A DNA stretch of 64,000 nt, from NCBI GenBank assembly GCA_964548885.1, contig CAZJSQ010000001.1:52782-116781 (forward strand), written 5' to 3'. The DNA is from an uncultured Gammaproteobacteria bacterium (lineage in GTDB: Bacteria; Patescibacteriota; Patescibacteriia; Patescibacteriales; UBA12465). Positions 2,347-6,751 of the stretch are shown piece by piece. The notes under the pieces are model-generated. The model worked only from the letters and a program-made list of their open reading frames with translations. It did not search any database and was not told the origin of the DNA. The translations under genes and the position numbers were made by a program. Each line of letters opens with the position of its first letter. Positions within the stretch are counted from its first letter, which is position 1.

Positions 2347-2370
2347 GCCATTTTTAAAATGGCTATTTTT
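2347..2370 (+). terminator. Palindrome CCATTTT(t)AAAATGG followed by a T-run; weak intrinsic terminator after metG
   Basis: Inverted repeat visible 30 nt after the metG stop, followed by TATTTTTG. Confidence 0.3.
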
Positions 2371-3004
2371 GTATAATTTTGTTAATATAAATTATATGAC
2401 AAATACTACTTATAACGAAATTATTAAAAAATCTCAAGAAAAGATTAAGGGTTTAGCAGTTAAGAATGGTTGGCTATGGTTTTATAATCTTCATCAAAAA
2501 GAAGTGGTAAATTATGCCGAGAAATTGTTAAATATTTATAAAAAAGCTGATTACAAAATTGTTATAATTTCTTGCTGGCTTCACGATATTGCTCATTATT
2601 ACGCTAAAAACGCCAAAGAAATACTAATGGTTAAAGCCAACCATCATATTAAGGGAGCGGAGAGCGCCGAAAAATTTTTAAAAAATTATAAAATTAGCCG
2701 AGAAGAAACTGAAAAAATTAAAAATTGTATTTTGTGTCATCGCAACAAAAAACCATTCATTCCTAAAACCATAGAAGAAAAAATTGTCACCGTGGCTGAT
2801 ACTATGTCTCATTTCGGCAGTATTTTTTATTTCACTTATTTTAAACTTCATCCTGATCATACTTTAGAGCAAATGGTTGCCACTGATTTAAATAAATTAA
2901 AAAGAGATCGCCGGGACATAAAACTTTTGCCCAAAGCACAAAAATTAGTGGAGAAAGAATATAAAATTATAAAAAAATTATTAAATAATTATAATAAGGT
3001 TTAG
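2369..3004 (+). CDS. HD-domain metal-dependent phosphohydrolase (first gene of the AT-rich island)
   Basis: Contains CWLHDIAH (the H..HD motif), downstream HH and a conserved Asp (VADTMSHF). The segment is AT-rich. An alternative start is the ATG at 2396 (MTNTTYNE). Confidence 0.7.
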   Translation: MYNFVNINYMTNTTYNEIIKKSQEKIKGLAVKNGWLWFYNLHQKEVVNYAEKLLNIYKKADYKIVIISCWLHDIAHYYAKNAKEILMVKANHHIKGAESAEKFLKNYKISREETEKIKNCILCHRNKKPFIPKTIEEKIVTVADTMSHFGSIFYFTYFKLHPDHTLEQMVATDLNKLKRDRRDIKLLPKAQKLVEKEYKIIKKLLNNYNKV

Positions 3005-3079
3005 TTAAAGCGCCTTGATTATTTGTTGAATTTTTGTTATTATAGAACCATAATTTATGGAATTTAATTAGGAATATAT

Positions 3080-4342
3080 ATGAATATAATAGACGTAAAT
3101 AAAATACTTAGGCGATATAGCCATTTACCGGCAGTGGCGATTTGGAAGGCAATTATTGTCAATGAAGGCGTTGATAGTTGTTTGAATAAAAAAGATTTTG
3201 AAAAAAAATTTAATAATTATAAGATTAAATACGCCGTTAAAAGCCCCATAAGTTCCGATTATAAAGTGTTAGACCGTTCCGCCGATCAAAGAGTCATTTC
3301 TTCCGAGGTAATAATAAAAGACAATGATAATAATTTATCTTTGCTGAAGTTACGTTATAACCCGCAATCCGTGATAAATTTGGCCATCACGGGAAATAAT
3401 GAAGAAAATATAAAATTTTATATCAAAAATAAGGATAAGAAAGTAATTATTCCCGTCGATATTTCATTTGTAAAAGAGAAAGGCGACTCGGTTGTCAGTT
3501 TATTGGGCAGGGACAGGCTCTCAATAAACTTGTTTGAGGGTTGCTGGAATTGGAATAGCGGCTGCCAATGCAAATTTTGCGATTTAAGCCCGAAAAGAAA
3601 GGATTATCGCAGCGTCGTCCCTTCTTTAAATGATTTAAGACCGCTTGATTTCGATTATGAGCTATGGTGGAATAAATATAAAATGGATTTTTTTAAAAGG
3701 CTTAATAAGTCATTTAAAAAAATGTACAAATTAGCCGAGCCCCACAAACATTTACTGATTATGTCCGGCGGTTTTATCGATAATGACTTTTTATGGAAAA
3801 TGATTATTGAATTAACGGAGGAATTAAATCGGATCATTCCTTTAAAAAAACTGGATAATTATATCAACGTCCCGCCGCCGACAAATAATATAAAAAAACA
3901 CTTTTTAAGATTAAAAAGCTTGGGAATCAAACAGATGCAGATTAATTTAGAAGTGGCCAATAAAAAAAAGTTTGAGAAAACCTGTCCGGGCAAGAATAAA
4001 ACCATCGGCTATGATAATTATCAGAAAGCTTTAAAAGTGGCGGTAACTGTTTTCGGCCGGGGAAAGGTCAGATCAAATTTTGTTTTTACTTCTCACGCCG
4101 CCAAAGAATTGTTAGACGAGGCCAAGCGTTTGGCGAAGTTAGGAGTCATAATGGACTATAGTATCTTTCAGCCCAAAAAAGGGACGCCGTGGTCTGAAAA
4201 GAAGGGCCCGGCCGCCGGTGAGATATTAAGTTTTACCGAAGCGCTCGCCAAAATTTATAAGAAACATAATTTTAGGGGTATTTATTGTAACTTAAGCAGT
4301 CGGTCAAGCATTATAAATGAAGTTTTGAATTATAAAGATTGA
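3080..4342 (+). CDS. Radical-SAM-like Fe-S protein with a non-canonical Cys cluster (hypothetical)
   Basis: A beta-strand-like LSINLFEG is followed by CWNWNSGCQCKFCD (Cx6CxCx2C), a Gly-rich LLIMSGGFID, and GIKQMQINLE. This resembles radical SAM core elements, but the canonical Cx3Cx2C motif is absent. Length is 420 aa and the segment is AT-rich. Confidence 0.4.
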   Translation: MNIIDVNKILRRYSHLPAVAIWKAIIVNEGVDSCLNKKDFEKKFNNYKIKYAVKSPISSDYKVLDRSADQRVISSEVIIKDNDNNLSLLKLRYNPQSVINLAITGNNEENIKFYIKNKDKKVIIPVDISFVKEKGDSVVSLLGRDRLSINLFEGCWNWNSGCQCKFCDLSPKRKDYRSVVPSLNDLRPLDFDYELWWNKYKMDFFKRLNKSFKKMYKLAEPHKHLLIMSGGFIDNDFLWKMIIELTEELNRIIPLKKLDNYINVPPPTNNIKKHFLRLKSLGIKQMQINLEVANKKKFEKTCPGKNKTIGYDNYQKALKVAVTVFGRGKVRSNFVFTSHAAKELLDEAKRLAKLGVIMDYSIFQPKKGTPWSEKKGPAAGEILSFTEALAKIYKKHNFRGIYCNLSSRSSIINEVLNYKD

Positions 4343-4392
4343 AATATTCGATATCGCCGGAAAGCAGAAAAGGCGACAAGCGTCAATAATTT

Positions 4393-5058
4393 ATGAAGAT
4401 TTCCGGAAAAAATAAAAAAATAAAGAATATTAATTTAATTTTACCGAAAAATTTTGTTAATCCGAACCTTAAAAAAAATCGGCATCTTTATTTTTTGTCC
4501 GGTCCGATCAGAGGAGCGGGGGATTGGCAAAAAAACGCCGTTAAAATGCTGGCCGATGAAGATAGGGATTGCTATATTGTTTGTCCTTGCCGTTATTCTA
4601 AACGCCATGAATTATATAATTTTTCATTATCATCAAAATATAAAAAACCATTTGGCGGATCGGGTGTAGCCGCTAAAAAATTCTCCAGTCAGACATTATG
4701 GGAAAGATATTATTTAGAGCTGGCTTCTTATTACGGATCAATTATTTTTTGGCTTCCGCTAGAATGTAAAGATAATCCCCGGCGAAAAAATGACGGCCCT
4801 TACGCCCGAGAGACGCTGGGGGAAATCGGCAGATGGAGCGTAAGAAGCGCCTATAAATTAGGTTTAGGCGCGAATAATAAAAATAAGGAAAAAGTTAACA
4901 TGATTATAGGGATACAAAGAGGTTTCTCCGGCCGGAAGACGATTAAAAGAAATTTGGACGCCGATCATGGAAAAAATTATCCGATTTACGCCTCTTTAAA
5001 GGAAACAATCAATAAAGCAATCAGTCTCGCTAAAAAATCTTCTAAAAATATTAAATAA
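4393..5058 (+). CDS. Nucleoside 2-deoxyribosyltransferase-like (SLOG/NDT-fold) protein
   Basis: An N-terminal Rossmann-like YFLSGPIRGAGDW is followed by NDGPYARETLGEIG, which matches the D-x-G-T-x-x-E-x-G catalytic-Glu motif of the NDT/DNPH1 family. Length is 221 aa. Confidence 0.55.
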   Translation: MKISGKNKKIKNINLILPKNFVNPNLKKNRHLYFLSGPIRGAGDWQKNAVKMLADEDRDCYIVCPCRYSKRHELYNFSLSSKYKKPFGGSGVAAKKFSSQTLWERYYLELASYYGSIIFWLPLECKDNPRRKNDGPYARETLGEIGRWSVRSAYKLGLGANNKNKEKVNMIIGIQRGFSGRKTIKRNLDADHGKNYPIYASLKETINKAISLAKKSSKNIK

Positions 5059-5114
5059 TCTAAATTTTCCAAGATATATTTTTTGGAGAAAAACAGACCT
5101 AAGACATCAAACAT

Positions 5115-6179
5115 ATGAGTTCACTGACAGGCAACAAAATTAATTATCTCACTCATACTCAACTTAATATTATCAAGGAAACTGGCGATTATCTTTTAGT
5201 ATATGATACCAACCATAAGAGAGAGGAATTGCTTGTTATTAGCGACAACCTCGAAGATGCGAAAAAATACCTCGATCTCGGCTGGAAAACTAAAAAAATT
5301 CTTTCCGGGATAATATTCATGGCTCCGGAAATTTGGATAGTTGATTTAGCCGACCCCTTCAAAGTTATAAAAAATGGCGGACTTCAAGAAAACTTGGCGC
5401 TCTATAATACTTTCAAATATTTTCAGAGTAACGATAAAATTTCCAGTTTAATTAATAAGACCTTGCGGAATAATGGGCTAAACGGATTAAAAGTATATTT
5501 ACTTCATGGGACATCTCTGGAAACTGAGATTAGAATGGCCGGTACGGATAAACGCGTTAACGATTTTAAACAATTATTCATTGATACGCTCCGGGAGAGT
5601 AAAGAATTTTTAAAAGAAATAGAACGGATTAAAATTAAATATGGAAAAAAGTGCCGGCGATTAGATCTGACTGAAAAATCCCCAGACAAAGCCGCCTTAA
5701 AGAAATATCAAGATATCTCCGATTATTATTCTTATATAGACCGGGATTTCTGTTTTCCTGATAATATTTATGGTTTATTTAAATTATTACCGGCGGCGGA
5801 TAATATAATTTTAATACCGCATAGCGGATTTAAATTTCTTGATGAAATTACAAAAATATTTGATTTTAAAAAAATTTCATTTTATGAAAGACATTTTAGT
5901 CGGAATGGTAATTTTTGGTTATTTAAAAGGAATTTTAAGAACAAGAAAGTTTTAATCATAGACGTAAGTTATTCCGGGGAAACATTGAATACCGTTTCAG
6001 AGATGATAAGCCGTGAAGGGGGCACCCCGATAAGAATAGCGGTGTGGCCGAAAAGTAAATTAGGTATAGCAAATTTTGAATATATTGTTTTTTTGGATAA
6101 AATAATAAAAACTCAAAATGTCCATACTGCCAATCCCGATTGGTGCGTTAATTTATATGAAAAAATCGCTTTTGAATAG
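5115..6179 (+). CDS. Protein with an uncharacterised ~260-aa N-terminal domain and a C-terminal type I phosphoribosyltransferase (PRTase) domain
   Basis: KKVLIIDVSYSGETLNTVSEMI matches the PRPP-binding motif of type I PRTases (hydrophobic x4, D, then xxTGxT). The stop overlaps the next gene's start by 1 nt. Confidence 0.55.
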   Translation: MSSLTGNKINYLTHTQLNIIKETGDYLLVYDTNHKREELLVISDNLEDAKKYLDLGWKTKKILSGIIFMAPEIWIVDLADPFKVIKNGGLQENLALYNTFKYFQSNDKISSLINKTLRNNGLNGLKVYLLHGTSLETEIRMAGTDKRVNDFKQLFIDTLRESKEFLKEIERIKIKYGKKCRRLDLTEKSPDKAALKKYQDISDYYSYIDRDFCFPDNIYGLFKLLPAADNIILIPHSGFKFLDEITKIFDFKKISFYERHFSRNGNFWLFKRNFKNKKVLIIDVSYSGETLNTVSEMISREGGTPIRIAVWPKSKLGIANFEYIVFLDKIIKTQNVHTANPDWCVNLYEKIAFE

Positions 6180-6751
6180 TGAATAAAAATATGGTTCAAG
6201 ACAATAGAGAGATTGAAATTAAAATTAAAATCACCGATATTGAAGAATTTGAGAAAAAAATATCGGCCCTAAATCCCCAAGTTATTAAGGAGGTTTTTGA
6301 AAGAACCGTACGTTTTGATACTAATAACGGGGATCTTGAAAAAAAAGGAATATTCGTCAGGATAAGATCTGGATCAAAAAACACTTGGACCGTAAAGAAA
6401 AAAATCAATGACGCGGCGCAACCAGATAAATACTTTCAAAGGAATGAATGGGAGGTGGGTATAGATGATTTAGAAACAGCCGGAGAAATGCTTAAAGTTT
6501 TAGGGTTTGAAAAAGAGTTTATTATGGAAAAATACAGAAAAAAATTTATTTTGCCAAAAGCGGAGATAACTATTGATAAGCTGCCATTCGGGACGTATGC
6601 GGAAATTGAGGCCGGTAAAGACGAGATAGATCGTCTTACTAAAATACTGGGGATTGACCAAGCAAGAAGGATAATCGGGACTTATTGGCATCTTCATGAA
6701 GAATATAATAAGATTCATGGTCTGACAGAAAAAAATATTATATTTTTATAA
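6179..6751 (+). CDS. CYTH-domain protein (class IV adenylate cyclase / triphosphate tunnel metalloenzyme family)
   Basis: The N-terminus REIEIKIKI carries the ExExK signature, and downstream acidic residues (EWEV, EIE) are typical of CYTH. The GTG start at 6179 overlaps the upstream stop; the ATG at 6191 is an alternative. Confidence 0.7.
   Translation: MNKNMVQDNREIEIKIKITDIEEFEKKISALNPQVIKEVFERTVRFDTNNGDLEKKGIFVRIRSGSKNTWTVKKKINDAAQPDKYFQRNEWEVGIDDLETAGEMLKVLGFEKEFIMEKYRKKFILPKAEITIDKLPFGTYAEIEAGKDEIDRLTKILGIDQARRIIGTYWHLHEEYNKIHGLTEKNIIFL

What the first reader, a model, noticed from the sequence alone, without database searches (positions are those of the whole stretch)
3080..4342. Radical-SAM-like protein with a non-canonical Cx6CxCx2C cluster
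The region LSINLFEG-CWNWNSGCQCKFC-DLSP sits where radical SAM enzymes carry Cx3Cx2C, and a GGF/Gly-rich motif (IMSGGFID) follows where the SAM-binding GGE motif would be. However, the Cys spacing is atypical: four Cys in 13 residues. Either this is a divergent radical SAM or a different Fe-S or Zn fold. Its position in the nucleotide-enzyme operon makes a nucleoside-modifying radical enzyme (viperin- or QueE-like chemistry) an attractive hypothesis.
Basis: partly seen in the sequence, partly recalled or inferred. Interest (0 to 1): 0.6.

Follow-up and report, generated by a model that had tools for sequence, protein, structure and literature searches.

The report
Variant radical SAM enzyme in nucleotide cassette
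The gene encodes a genuine but divergent radical SAM enzyme whose iron-sulfur site uses a stretched three-cysteine motif (Cx8Cx2C, not four cysteines), and it heads a rare, horizontally mobile gene cassette of nucleotide-handling enzymes whose product is unknown and which may act like the antiviral viperin systems.

Summary
ORF 3080-4342(+) encodes 420 aa with CWNWNSGCQCKFC (C155/C162/C164/C167) and MSGG at the GGE position. The "divergent radical SAM" reading is supported. The protein passes the curated NCBIfam model NF045502 "variant_rSAM" (137 bits, cut-off 125). A confident AlphaFold model (pLDDT 94.8) matches only radical SAM barrels in the PDB. The four-Cys idea is not supported: C155, C164 and C167 are invariant in 121 close and about 96 distant homologues (Cx8Cx2C), while C162 occurs in 7 of 121. 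The family is rare, with 42 clusters at E<=1e-30 among 1.84 billion representatives, and has no characterised member. In 30 non-redundant loci from Patescibacteria, Clostridia, Bacilli, Gammaproteobacteria, Bacteroidota and Nanoarchaeota, the gene is followed by a PRT-fold protein (27/30) and a CYTH protein (25/30). NUDIX (17/30) and NMP-kinase-like genes (about 15/30) are frequent; NDT-like, nucleoside hydrolase or HD genes are occasional. A true viperin lies two genes away in one locus. Fusions to a PRTase domain occur beside type III CRISPR-Cas. In the window the cassette is a low-GC island. Best reading: a nucleotide-modifying radical enzyme in a mobile, possibly antiviral cassette. The substrate, product and biological role are inferred, not shown.

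The parts
3080..4342 (+). Variant radical SAM protein (vRSAM), 420 aa; the finding itself
   Evidence: ORF. NF045502 variant_rSAM at 137.4 bits against a cut-off of 125. AlphaFold pLDDT 94.8. Foldseek top hits are all radical SAM enzymes.
3080..3514 (+). N-terminal beta-rich domain (residues 1-145), conserved in the family (K50, E76 and K90 invariant), with no matched fold
   Evidence: Secondary structure. Invariant columns. PDB matches cover only about 260 columns of the C-terminal barrel.
3515..4279 (+). Radical SAM (beta/alpha)6 core (residues 146-400)
   Evidence: Strands 146-150, 224-228, 259-263, 285-287, 330-336 and 356-362 alternate with helices. Foldseek matches to BioB 8vdw, LipA 5exi, NifB 6y1x, HydE 5few and PylB 3t7v have E-values of 3e-6 to 7e-5.
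3542..3580 (+). Cluster loop CWNWNSGCQCKFC. C155, C164 and C167 (Cx8Cx2C) are the inferred [4Fe-4S] ligands. C162 is a clade-specific extra. S160 occupies the canonical first-Cys position.
   Evidence: Translation. Conservation. Pfam register: HMM positions 7/11/14 correspond to residues 160/164/167.
3761..3772 (+). MSGG at the end of strand 2, equivalent to the GGE SAM-binding motif. G230 is nearly invariant (38/40 core and 83/84 distant representatives).
3944..3994 (+). NLE...CPGK motif on and after strand 4. E291 and K305 are invariant across the wider superfamily. C302 is conserved in 121/121 close homologues and 75/95 distant ones.
4286..4321 (+). C-terminal tail motif C-x3-SSRSS-x3-NE. 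R408 is invariant and C403 is present in 120/121. It is a candidate substrate (phosphate) binding lid; this role is inferred.
2369..3004 (+). HD-domain phosphohydrolase, first gene of the low-GC island. It is present only in this locus among the 30 compared. An HD gene also follows the vRSAM-PRTase fusion in L040.
   Evidence: Pfam HD at 6.9e-10..
4393..5058 (+). Nucleoside 2-deoxyribosyltransferase-like protein (P221), an accessory gene found in 5/30 loci
   Evidence: Three of five family members hit PF15891 (best 6.8e-9). The profile hits PDB 4mcj at 8.9e-5. Locus counts.
5115..6179 (+). P345: a conserved partner (27/30 loci). The C-terminal domain has a type I phosphoribosyltransferase fold with a conserved D283..Y286-S-G288-x-T290 loop. 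The N-terminal ~210 aa has no matched fold.
   Evidence: AlphaFold pLDDT 87.8. Foldseek matches to HGXPRT 5bqp, OPRT and purine PRT 1vdm. 16/19 members hit PF00156 weakly. Conservation.
6179..6751 (+). CYTH (triphosphate tunnel metalloenzyme) protein, a conserved partner (25/30 loci). The EIEIK signature is intact here.
   Evidence: Pfam CYTH at 8.3e-18. TIGR00318 cyaB at 51 bits, below its cut-off of 57.95..

Best explanation
ORF 3080-4342 encodes a true radical SAM enzyme of the uncharacterised 'variant_rSAM' family (NCBIfam NF045502). It has an N-terminal beta-rich domain, a (beta/alpha)6 radical SAM core and a conserved C-terminal SSRSS tail. The [4Fe-4S] cluster is most likely held by C155, C164 and C167. 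The first ligand sits five residues upstream of its canonical place, giving Cx8Cx2C. C162 is a lineage-specific spare cysteine. The enzyme would cleave SAM reductively to a 5'-deoxyadenosyl radical. It is the lead gene of a conserved, horizontally mobile cassette: vRSAM, a PRT-fold protein and CYTH, often with NUDIX and an NMP kinase, and sometimes with NDT-like, nucleoside hydrolase or HD genes. I infer that the enzyme performs radical chemistry on a nucleotide, probably an NTP supplied by the kinase. Cytidylate-kinase-like genes are the commonest, which points to a pyrimidine. CYTH, NUDIX and HD would trim or cyclise the phosphate tail, and the PRT-fold protein would make or bind the 5-phosphoribosyl compound. 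The output would be a modified nucleotide used in conflict (antiviral or antibiotic), by analogy with prokaryotic viperin plus kinase and with Ophion. Shown: the fold, family membership, the pattern of Cys conservation and the gene linkage. Inferred: which Cys ligate the cluster, SAM cleavage, the nucleotide substrate and the defence role.
For: Family and fold: NF045502 at 137.4 bits against 125. The AlphaFold model has pLDDT 94.8 and pTM 0.92. All Foldseek PDB hits with E<=1e-3 are radical SAM enzymes.

Cysteines: C155, C164 and C167 are present in 121/121 close homologues, in 34/34 core representatives and in 62-64/64 distant representatives. C162 is in 7/121 and C160 in 61/121. G230, N289, E291, K305 and R408 are conserved.

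Cassette: in 30 non-redundant loci, P345 occurs in 27, CYTH in 25, NUDIX in 15 adjacent plus 2 fused, and the NDT-like gene in 5. NMP-kinase-like genes occur in 14-15 loci, and an IU-nucleoside hydrolase lies inside one operon. NUDIX-vRSAM fusions appear and vRSAM-PRTase-CE fusions. P345 has a PRT fold.

Mobility and conflict context: the island has GC 0.33-0.35 against 0.46 in the flanks. Flanking genes differ between genomes. The taxonomic spread is patchy. The cassette is chimeric. The family is rare, with 42 clusters at E<=1e-30. A true viperin lies two genes upstream in L023. Flanking kinases match the PADLOC pVip-kinase and VakA models. One fusion protein sits beside type III CRISPR-Cas. 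Ophion (rSAM+PHP+PRTase) is a validated defence system with analogous content (bioRxiv 10.1101/2025.09.30.679545).
Against: No biochemistry exists for any family member. My literature searches found nothing on this family or cassette. None of the five window proteins hits a PADLOC model significantly. The Pfam Radical_SAM score is below threshold (16.7 against 29.5). PDB sequence and profile searches find nothing. I could not read model coordinates, so convergence of the three Cys on one site was not measured. In half of the close homologues a canonical Cx3Cx2C is nested in the loop, so the identity of the first ligand is ambiguous there. In Clostridia the cassette sits under a LysR regulator next to kinases, which also fits ordinary metabolism. 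Many triad CYTH proteins have Q in place of the metal-binding E of ExExK. The matches to the pVip-kinase model may only reflect generic cytidylate kinases. There is no close homologue in phage or plasmid collections.
Confidence: 0.6

Rival explanations
1. All four clustered cysteines form one site, either a Cys4 [4Fe-4S] or a Zn site. The protein would then be a non-SAM Fe-S or Zn protein rather than a radical SAM enzyme.
For: Four Cys lie within 13 residues in this sequence. The Pfam Radical_SAM score is below threshold.
Against: C162 is present in only 7/121 homologues, while the other three are invariant. The fold matches only radical SAM barrels. The GGE-like G230 and the strand-4 N289/E291 are conserved. 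A site-differentiated three-Cys cluster is what SAM binding requires (established knowledge of the superfamily).
Confidence: 0.03
2. It is a radical SAM enzyme, but in this clade the ligands are C162/C164/C167 (CxCx2C). In the Clostridial clade they would be the nested canonical C160/C164/C167. C155 would have another conserved role, such as a catalytic thiol or a second metal site together with C302 and C403.
For: By the Pfam register, position 160 is the canonical first-Cys position, and it is Cys in 61/121 homologues. The window clade lost C160 and gained C162, which looks like compensation. Two further conserved Cys (C302 and C403) exist.
Against: Most 50%-identity cluster representatives have no Cys at 160 or 162 (30/34 core, all distant ones), yet they keep C155. 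For them C155 is the only possible third ligand. Cx8Cx2C groups are catalogued in RadicalSAM.org (PMC9477430).
Confidence: 0.1
3. The cassette is ordinary metabolism, not conflict. It would be a nucleotide salvage or cofactor pathway, for example recycling or repair of a damaged nucleotide, or making a modified base for the cell's own RNA or DNA. Such a pathway could be useful to reduced-genome Patescibacteria and gut Firmicutes.
For: All partners are salvage-type enzymes: PRT, NDT-like, nucleoside hydrolase, kinases, NUDIX and HD. A LysR regulator and MoaA-like paralogues occur in Clostridial loci. The window proteins have no PADLOC hit. The window island sits among housekeeping genes.
Against: The family is very rare and patchily distributed. 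Here it forms a low-GC island. Modules are shuffled between cassettes. There are links to a viperin, to defence genes and to type III CRISPR-Cas. A core salvage pathway would be expected to be more widespread and vertically inherited.
Confidence: 0.25
4. The enzyme modifies a peptide or protein (RiPP-type maturase) or a tRNA/RNA, rather than a free nucleotide.
For: In Paenibacillus loci the gene lacks the triad and follows a PqqD-like gene and ABC transporters. The partner NUDIX carries a LeuRS-editing-domain-like segment (PF13603, 5e-11). GreA-like genes are adjacent in 5 loci.
Against: No precursor peptide or SPASM/twitch domain is present. The PqqD context is limited to 2 of 30 loci, which also carry a thymidylate kinase. 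The dominant partners act on small phosphorylated nucleosides.
Confidence: 0.07

Closest known systems
NCBIfam NF045502 'variant_rSAM' (radical SAM protein; domain-level model)
   Same: The window protein scores 137.4 bits against a cut-off of 125. The Lacrimispora homologue, the PRTase fusions and a distant gut-contig homologue also pass. All share Cx8Cx2C, NLE..CPGK and the C-terminal R/E motifs.
   Different: The model only names a superfamily-level group and assigns no function. The triad-associated clade (42 clusters at E<=1e-30) is a small subset with its own N-terminal domain and gene context.
TIGR04043 MSMEG_0568 family radical SAM protein (common on Klebsiella, Acetobacter and Komagataeibacter plasmids)
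   Same: It is the nearest named subfamily. Identity is 20-25% over the barrel (residues ~138-400), and it shares the stretched Cys loop and the CPGK motif.
   Different: The score is 57 bits against a cut-off of 303.7, so the window protein is not a member. It has a different N-terminus and a different gene context. It is also uncharacterised; no paper was found.
Prokaryotic viperins (pVip) with associated nucleotide kinases
   Same: Both are a radical SAM enzyme encoded next to CMP-, dTMP- or GMP-kinase-like genes. Both are patchy and mobile. A real viperin sits two genes from the cassette in L023. The flanking kinases match the PADLOC pVip-kinase and VakA models.
   Different: There is no sequence-level relationship: no PADLOC pVip hit, and mouse viperin is only Foldseek rank 29 at E 1.5e-3. 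The Cys motif differs (Cx8Cx2C against Cx3Cx2C). This family has an extra N-terminal domain and obligatory PRT-fold and CYTH partners that viperins lack.
Ophion defence system (OpnA rSAM + OpnB PHP + OpnC PRTase), bioRxiv 10.1101/2025.09.30.679545
   Same: Both are three-gene systems combining a radical SAM enzyme, a phosphoesterase and a PRTase-fold protein. Ophion is proposed to act through modified nucleotides and is experimentally anti-phage.
   Different: OpnA has a canonical CGIGCAFC motif and no detectable similarity to vRSAM (BLASTP E 27). OpnC is unrelated to P345 by profile comparison (probability 0.1%). The phosphoesterase is PHP rather than CYTH. Ophion is found in Gammaproteobacteria.
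BioB/HydE/PylB/HydG/ThiH/NosL and LipA/NifB radical SAM structures
   Same: They are the best structural matches over about 260 columns (E 3e-6 to 1e-3, TM 0.45-0.64 normalised to the target). RadicalSAM.org places its Cx8Cx2C groups (Megacluster-4-6-x) inside the megacluster that holds the biotin/thiazole-synthase-like enzymes (PMC9477430).
   Different: Identity is 12-17%, and no sequence or profile hit to any PDB chain was found. The barrel has six strands and there are no auxiliary-cluster motifs. Membership of Megacluster-4-6 was not checked.

Membership tests
Radical SAM superfamily | Three-Cys motif in the loop after barrel strand 1 that binds a site-differentiated [4Fe-4S] cluster | tested here: met
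   C155, C164 and C167 are invariant in 121/121 close and all informative distant homologues. The motif lies right after strand E146-150. The spacing is the variant Cx8Cx2C, not Cx3Cx2C. Metal binding itself was not tested.
Radical SAM superfamily | Partial or full (beta/alpha) TIM barrel | tested here: met
   AlphaFold pLDDT 94.8 with six alternating strand/helix units. All 25 PDB matches with E<=1e-3 are radical SAM enzymes.
Radical SAM superfamily | SAM-binding motifs (GGE-like after strand 2, ribose motif on strand 4) | tested here: inconclusive
   MSGG with G230 conserved (38/40 and 83/84). N289 and E291 on strand 4 are conserved. Their assignment to SAM contacts rests on position only, because no coordinates or ligand model were available.
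Radical SAM superfamily | Pfam PF04055 gathering threshold | tested here: not met
   16.7 bits against 29.5. Only some homologues carry a precomputed PF04055 hit. This reflects divergence, and the curated NF045502 model covers the gap.
Radical SAM superfamily | Reductive cleavage of SAM to a 5'-deoxyadenosyl radical | not testable with these tools
   Requires anaerobic enzymology.
NCBIfam NF045502 variant_rSAM | Whole-protein score at or above the curated cut-off (125 bits) | tested here: met
   137.4 bits, E 5.7e-40, residues 89-395.
TIGR04043 MSMEG_0568 family | Score at or above the curated cut-off (303.7 bits) | tested here: not met
   57 bits, C-terminal third only.
Viperin / pVip | Match to viperin models; canonical CxxxCxxC; sequence similarity to solved viperins | tested here: not met
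   No PADLOC pVip hit. No PDB sequence hit. Viperin 6q2p is found only at Foldseek E 1.5e-3. As a positive control, the neighbouring L023 gene does match viperins at 1e-15 to 3e-17.
QueE (7-carboxy-7-deazaguanine synthase) | Match to QueE family models | tested here: not met
   No QueE model appears among the NCBIfam or Pfam hits at E<=1.
Ophion defence system | Homologues of OpnA, OpnB (PHP) and OpnC in one operon | tested here: not met
   OpnA against vRSAM gives BLASTP E 27. OpnC against the P345 profile gives probability 0.1%. There is no PHP gene in the window island.

The most novel reading that the evidence does not exclude
The vRSAM, PRT-fold and CYTH triad (with NUDIX and kinase add-ons) is a previously undescribed anti-phage or antibiotic system. 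It would make a new kind of modified nucleotide by radical chemistry unrelated to viperin's, in a family whose cluster-binding motif is itself non-canonical. Its spread into Patescibacteria and Nanoarchaeota would make it one of the few enzymatic 'chemical defence' systems known in ultra-small episymbionts.
Probability: 0.3. Interest if true: 0.8.

Novelty: new member of a known kind. Interest (0 to 1): 0.5.

Why it matters
The protein is a member of a curated family, so annotation pipelines already call it a 'radical SAM protein', and Cx8Cx2C variants are already catalogued. What is not described anywhere I could search is the family's function or its tight linkage to a PRT-fold protein, a CYTH enzyme, NUDIX and nucleotide kinases. 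If the cassette makes a modified nucleotide, it would add a second, evolutionarily independent radical SAM route to antiviral or antibiotic nucleotide analogues. It would also give a first function to the variant_rSAM/MSMEG_0568 superfamily, which is common on clinical Klebsiella plasmids. Finally, it would offer a natural test case for how far the first cluster ligand can move in a radical SAM loop.

Tried and rejected

**Searches that found nothing useful**
- PDB sequence searches with the single protein and with a 71-sequence profile found nothing.
- PADLOC and PHROGs gave no meaningful hits for the window proteins.
- The phage collection gave one weak hit, in an unverified contig. It is a distant MSMEG_0568-like homologue without the triad.
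- Plasmid hits are all MSMEG_0568-family at 20-25% identity.
- The BFVD viral fold search gave only generic radical SAM matches.
- Literature searches found nothing on this family: NF045502, MSMEG_0568, PRTase-CE, radical SAM plus CYTH, triphosphate tunnel and VakA.
- The eLife 2020 conflict-systems paper does not describe it.

**Ideas rejected**
- Ophion homology.
- Homology between P345 and the PRTase-CE domain of the fusion proteins (hhalign probability 0.2%).
- An N-terminal CYTH-like ExExR motif in P345. It is conserved only among close relatives.
- Flanking direct repeats or att sites around the island. Only AT-rich chance matches were found.
- The promoter and terminator scan was uninformative beyond a terminator-like hairpin after metG at 2346-2364.
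Full report
**1. Observation**

The ORF at 3080-4342 (+) starts with ATG and encodes 420 aa. Nucleotides 3542-3580 translate to CWNWNSGCQCKFC. IMSGGFID follows at residues 227-234. The protein has only seven cysteines. Four of seven falling within 13 residues happens in about 0.2% of random placements.

**2. Fold and family**

Pfam gives only a sub-threshold Radical_SAM hit (16.7 bits against 29.5). The curated NCBIfam model NF045502 'variant_rSAM' is passed (137.4 bits against 125). The nearest named subfamily, TIGR04043 MSMEG_0568, is not passed (57 against 303.7).

An AlphaFold model built on 71 homologues is confident (pLDDT 94.8, pTM 0.92). It shows a beta-rich N-terminal domain (about residues 1-145) followed by six alternating strand/helix units (146-400) and a short C-terminal tail. 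The Cys loop directly follows the first barrel strand, and MSGG ends the second strand.

Foldseek against the PDB returns only radical SAM enzymes among the hits with E<=1e-3. These include BioB, LipA, NifB, MgmA, HydE, PylB, BlsE, HydG, RlmN, DesII and ThiH, each over about 260 columns. Mouse viperin appears at rank 29. No PDB chain is detectable by sequence, even with a 71-sequence profile. The family is therefore very divergent from every solved member.

**3. Which cysteines matter**

In 121 close homologues, C155, C164, C167 and C302 are present in 121/121 and C403 in 120/121. C162 is present in only 7/121, namely the window's own clade plus one other sequence. C160 is Cys in 61/121, giving C-YNWI-C-GKQ-C-KF-C with a nested canonical Cx3Cx2C.

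In an exhaustive HMMER search of 1.84 billion cluster representatives, C155/C164/C167 are present in 34/34 informative core sequences and 62-64/64 more distant ones. Cys at 160 occurs in 4/34 core sequences and is not among the common residues at that position in the distant set.

The register of the Pfam model can be calibrated on a canonical neighbour enzyme. There, residues 15/19/22 correspond to HMM positions 7/11/14. On the window protein the same register places C164 and C167 at the second and third canonical positions and S160 at the first. The conserved motif is therefore Cx8Cx2C, with the first ligand displaced five residues upstream. C162 is a lineage-specific extra.

Cx8Cx2C groups are already listed in RadicalSAM.org as Megaclusters 4-6-1/-3/-5/-6, within the megacluster that holds the biotin/thiazole-synthase-like enzymes (PMC9477430). 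This agrees with the best structural matches. I did not verify that this family is one of those groups.

Other conserved positions are G230, N289/E291, K305 (in the CPGK motif), R331 in the core clade, and R408/E414 in the C-terminal SSRSS..NE tail. I could not read model coordinates, so convergence of the three sulfurs on one site is inferred and not measured.

**4. Size and spread of the family**

Only 42 clusters (at 50% identity) reach E<=1e-30, 136 reach 1e-10 and 556 reach 1e-3. Species-representative genomes carrying a relative are scattered. They include Paceibacterota, Berkelbacteria and other Patescibacteria, Clostridia, Bacilli, Paenibacillus, Lacrimispora, Gammaproteobacteria, a Muribaculaceae MAG and a Nanoarchaeota MAG. 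No close homologue is found in the phage or plasmid collections. Plasmid hits are MSMEG_0568-family proteins at 20-25% identity.

**5. Gene context**

Context was scored in 30 non-redundant loci.

| Partner | Loci |
|---|---|
| ~345-aa protein (P345; window 5115-6179) | 27/30 |
| CYTH protein (window 6179-6751) | 25/30 |
| NUDIX hydrolase | 15 adjacent + 2 fused |
| NMP-kinase-like gene | 14-15/30 |
| NDT-like protein (window 4393-5058) | 5/30 |
| MoaA-like radical SAM plus a second CYTH | 4/30 |
| IU-nucleoside hydrolase inside the operon | 1/30 |

Three of the loci lacking partners are truncated contigs or the Paenibacillus variant.

- **NUDIX.** It is also fused to vRSAM in several ~700-aa proteins from the homologue search. 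It carries an N-terminal LeuRS-editing-domain-like segment.
- **Kinases.** Cytidylate-kinase-like genes are the commonest (9 loci). Thymidylate-kinase-like and guanylate kinase genes also occur.
- **MoaA-like pair.** Identified.
- **NDT-like protein.** Three of five family members hit PF15891, and the profile hits PDB 4mcj.
- **P345.** The model (pLDDT 87.8) has a C-terminal type I phosphoribosyltransferase fold matching HGXPRT, OPRT and purine PRT. The D283/Y286/G288/T290 loop is fully conserved. Its N-terminal ~210 residues match nothing.
- **CYTH.** The window protein keeps the EIEIK signature. Many Clostridial and Bacilli versions have Q in place of the glutamates.
- **Fusions.** Two giant proteins fuse vRSAM to a Pfam 'PRTase-CE' domain and a long helical tail. 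This PRT domain is unrelated in sequence to P345, so vRSAM has become linked to a PRT fold twice independently.

**6. Mobility and conflict signals**

- The island 2369-6751 has GC 0.33-0.35 against about 0.46 in the flanks, which encode RsmI, MetRS, CvpA, TsaC, an S41 peptidase and CTP synthase.
- The flanking genes differ in every genome examined.
- The cassette is chimeric. Relative to the window, L001 has vRSAM/P345/CYTH identities of 70/29/39%, while L036 has 37/72/70%.
- A PADLOC census of 146 flanking genes found 8 VakA, 7 pVip-kinase and 2 pVip matches, plus MADS, AriA, RmrA and candidate-system genes.
- One of those flanking genes, L023:6052-6855, is a bona fide viperin-like enzyme two genes upstream of vRSAM. 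It matches solved viperins at 1e-15 to 3e-17.
- One vRSAM-PRTase fusion lies immediately after a type III CRISPR-Cas cassette and before GTPase and TPR giant proteins. The other is followed by an HD protein, as the window vRSAM is preceded by one.
- Against a defence role: none of the window proteins matches a PADLOC model. The kinase hits may be generic. Clostridial loci carry a LysR regulator, which is typical of metabolic operons.

**7. Mechanism**

*Shown:*
- the radical SAM fold
- family membership
- the three-Cys conservation pattern
- tight linkage to PRT-fold, CYTH, NUDIX and kinase genes
- the patchy, mobile and chimeric distribution

*Inferred:*
- C155/C164/C167 bind a [4Fe-4S] cluster that cleaves SAM.
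- The substrate is a phosphorylated nucleoside, most likely an NTP produced by the associated kinase. The dominance of cytidylate-kinase-like genes hints at a pyrimidine.
- CYTH, NUDIX and HD act on the phosphate tail of the substrate or product.
- The PRT-fold protein makes or binds the 5-phosphoribosyl compound.
- Module exchange between cassettes suggests the enzymes communicate through diffusible intermediates rather than an obligate complex.
- The product is a modified nucleotide used in conflict.

I put about 0.9 on 'true radical SAM with Cx8Cx2C-type ligation', about 0.6 on a nucleotide substrate and about 0.3-0.35 on a defence or antibiotic role.

**8. Comparison with known systems**

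The protein is a member of NF045502. It is not a member of the MSMEG_0568, viperin or QueE families.

The nearest functional analogues are prokaryotic viperins with kinases and the recently reported Ophion system, rSAM + PHP + PRTase (bioRxiv 10.1101/2025.09.30.679545). Ophion's proteins show no detectable similarity to vRSAM or P345. Its radical SAM enzyme has a canonical Cys motif.

No paper on this family or cassette was found.

**9. Verdict**

The enzyme is a new member of a catalogued but uncharacterised family. The conserved nucleotide cassette around it is the more interesting part and appears undescribed. Interest is 0.5.

Noticed in passing
window 2369-6751: The five genes (HD, vRSAM, NDT-like, PRT-fold, CYTH) form a low-GC island. 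GC is 0.33-0.35 against about 0.46 in the housekeeping flanks (rsmI, metG, cvpA, tsaC, S41 peptidase, pyrG). No flanking repeats, integrase or tRNA were seen.
   Followed up: partly
window 3080-6751 compared with L001:8001-11580 and L036:6733-9645: The cassette is chimeric. vRSAM/P345/CYTH identities to the window are 70/29/39% in L001 but 37/72/70% in L036. The NDT-like gene sits at the junction in the window but after CYTH in L001. The modules are swapped between cassettes.
   Followed up: partly
L039:8001-11801; L040:2542-5967: Giant fusion proteins (1266 and 1141 aa) combine vRSAM, the Pfam PRTase-CE domain and a helical tail. One lies directly after a type III CRISPR-Cas cassette (RAMPs, Cas6) and before GTPase and TPR giant proteins. 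The other lies between a ThiF-like gene and an HD gene.
   Followed up: partly
L023:6052-6855: A bona fide viperin-like radical SAM gene lies two genes upstream of the vRSAM cassette. It matches solved viperins at E 1e-15 to 3e-17. In four other Clostridial loci the equivalent upstream position holds a MoaA-like radical SAM plus a second CYTH gene.
   Followed up: partly
L001:11660-12304(-), L009:2489-2965, L011:617-1201, L017:11673-12146, L036:9716-10180(-): A GreA/GreB-like gene lies next to the cassette in five loci with otherwise different flanks. It could be synteny in Patescibacteria or a functional link such as rescue of stalled RNA polymerase. This was not tested.
   Followed up: no
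window 6179-6751 and the CYTH genes of L004, L019-L029, L035: The CYTH ExExK signature is intact (EIEIK) in the window and in Patescibacteria-type loci. It reads D/Q-x-Q-x-K in many Clostridia and Bacilli loci, so those versions may bind rather than hydrolyse triphosphates.
   Followed up: partly
L004:10807-11673 and the fused forms P0041, P0049, P0092: The partner NUDIX hydrolase carries an N-terminal segment matching the LeuRS editing domain (PF13603, E 5e-11). This two-domain unit is fused to the N-terminus of vRSAM in several ~700-aa proteins.
   Followed up: partly
L008:7661-10445 and L033: Paenibacillus loci lack the PRT-fold and CYTH partners. There vRSAM follows a PqqD-like gene and ABC transporter genes, and precedes a thymidylate kinase and a 142-aa protein of unknown function, next to an IS element.
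   Followed up: no
window 4393-5058: The window's NDT-like protein carries two insertions (about residues 66-100 and 150-165) relative to the shorter (~165 aa) homologues in L011, L013 and L017. It gives no Pfam hit itself, although three relatives hit PF15891.
   Followed up: partly
P0267 (4141 aa): A 4141-aa protein matched the C-terminal 50 residues of vRSAM (367-417) in seven separate stretches. It was not examined.
   Followed up: no
Klebsiella, E. coli, Acetobacter and Komagataeibacter plasmids: The distant MSMEG_0568-family relatives of this enzyme occur on 460+ plasmids, including 366 Klebsiella plasmids. They are also functionally uncharacterised.
   Followed up: no
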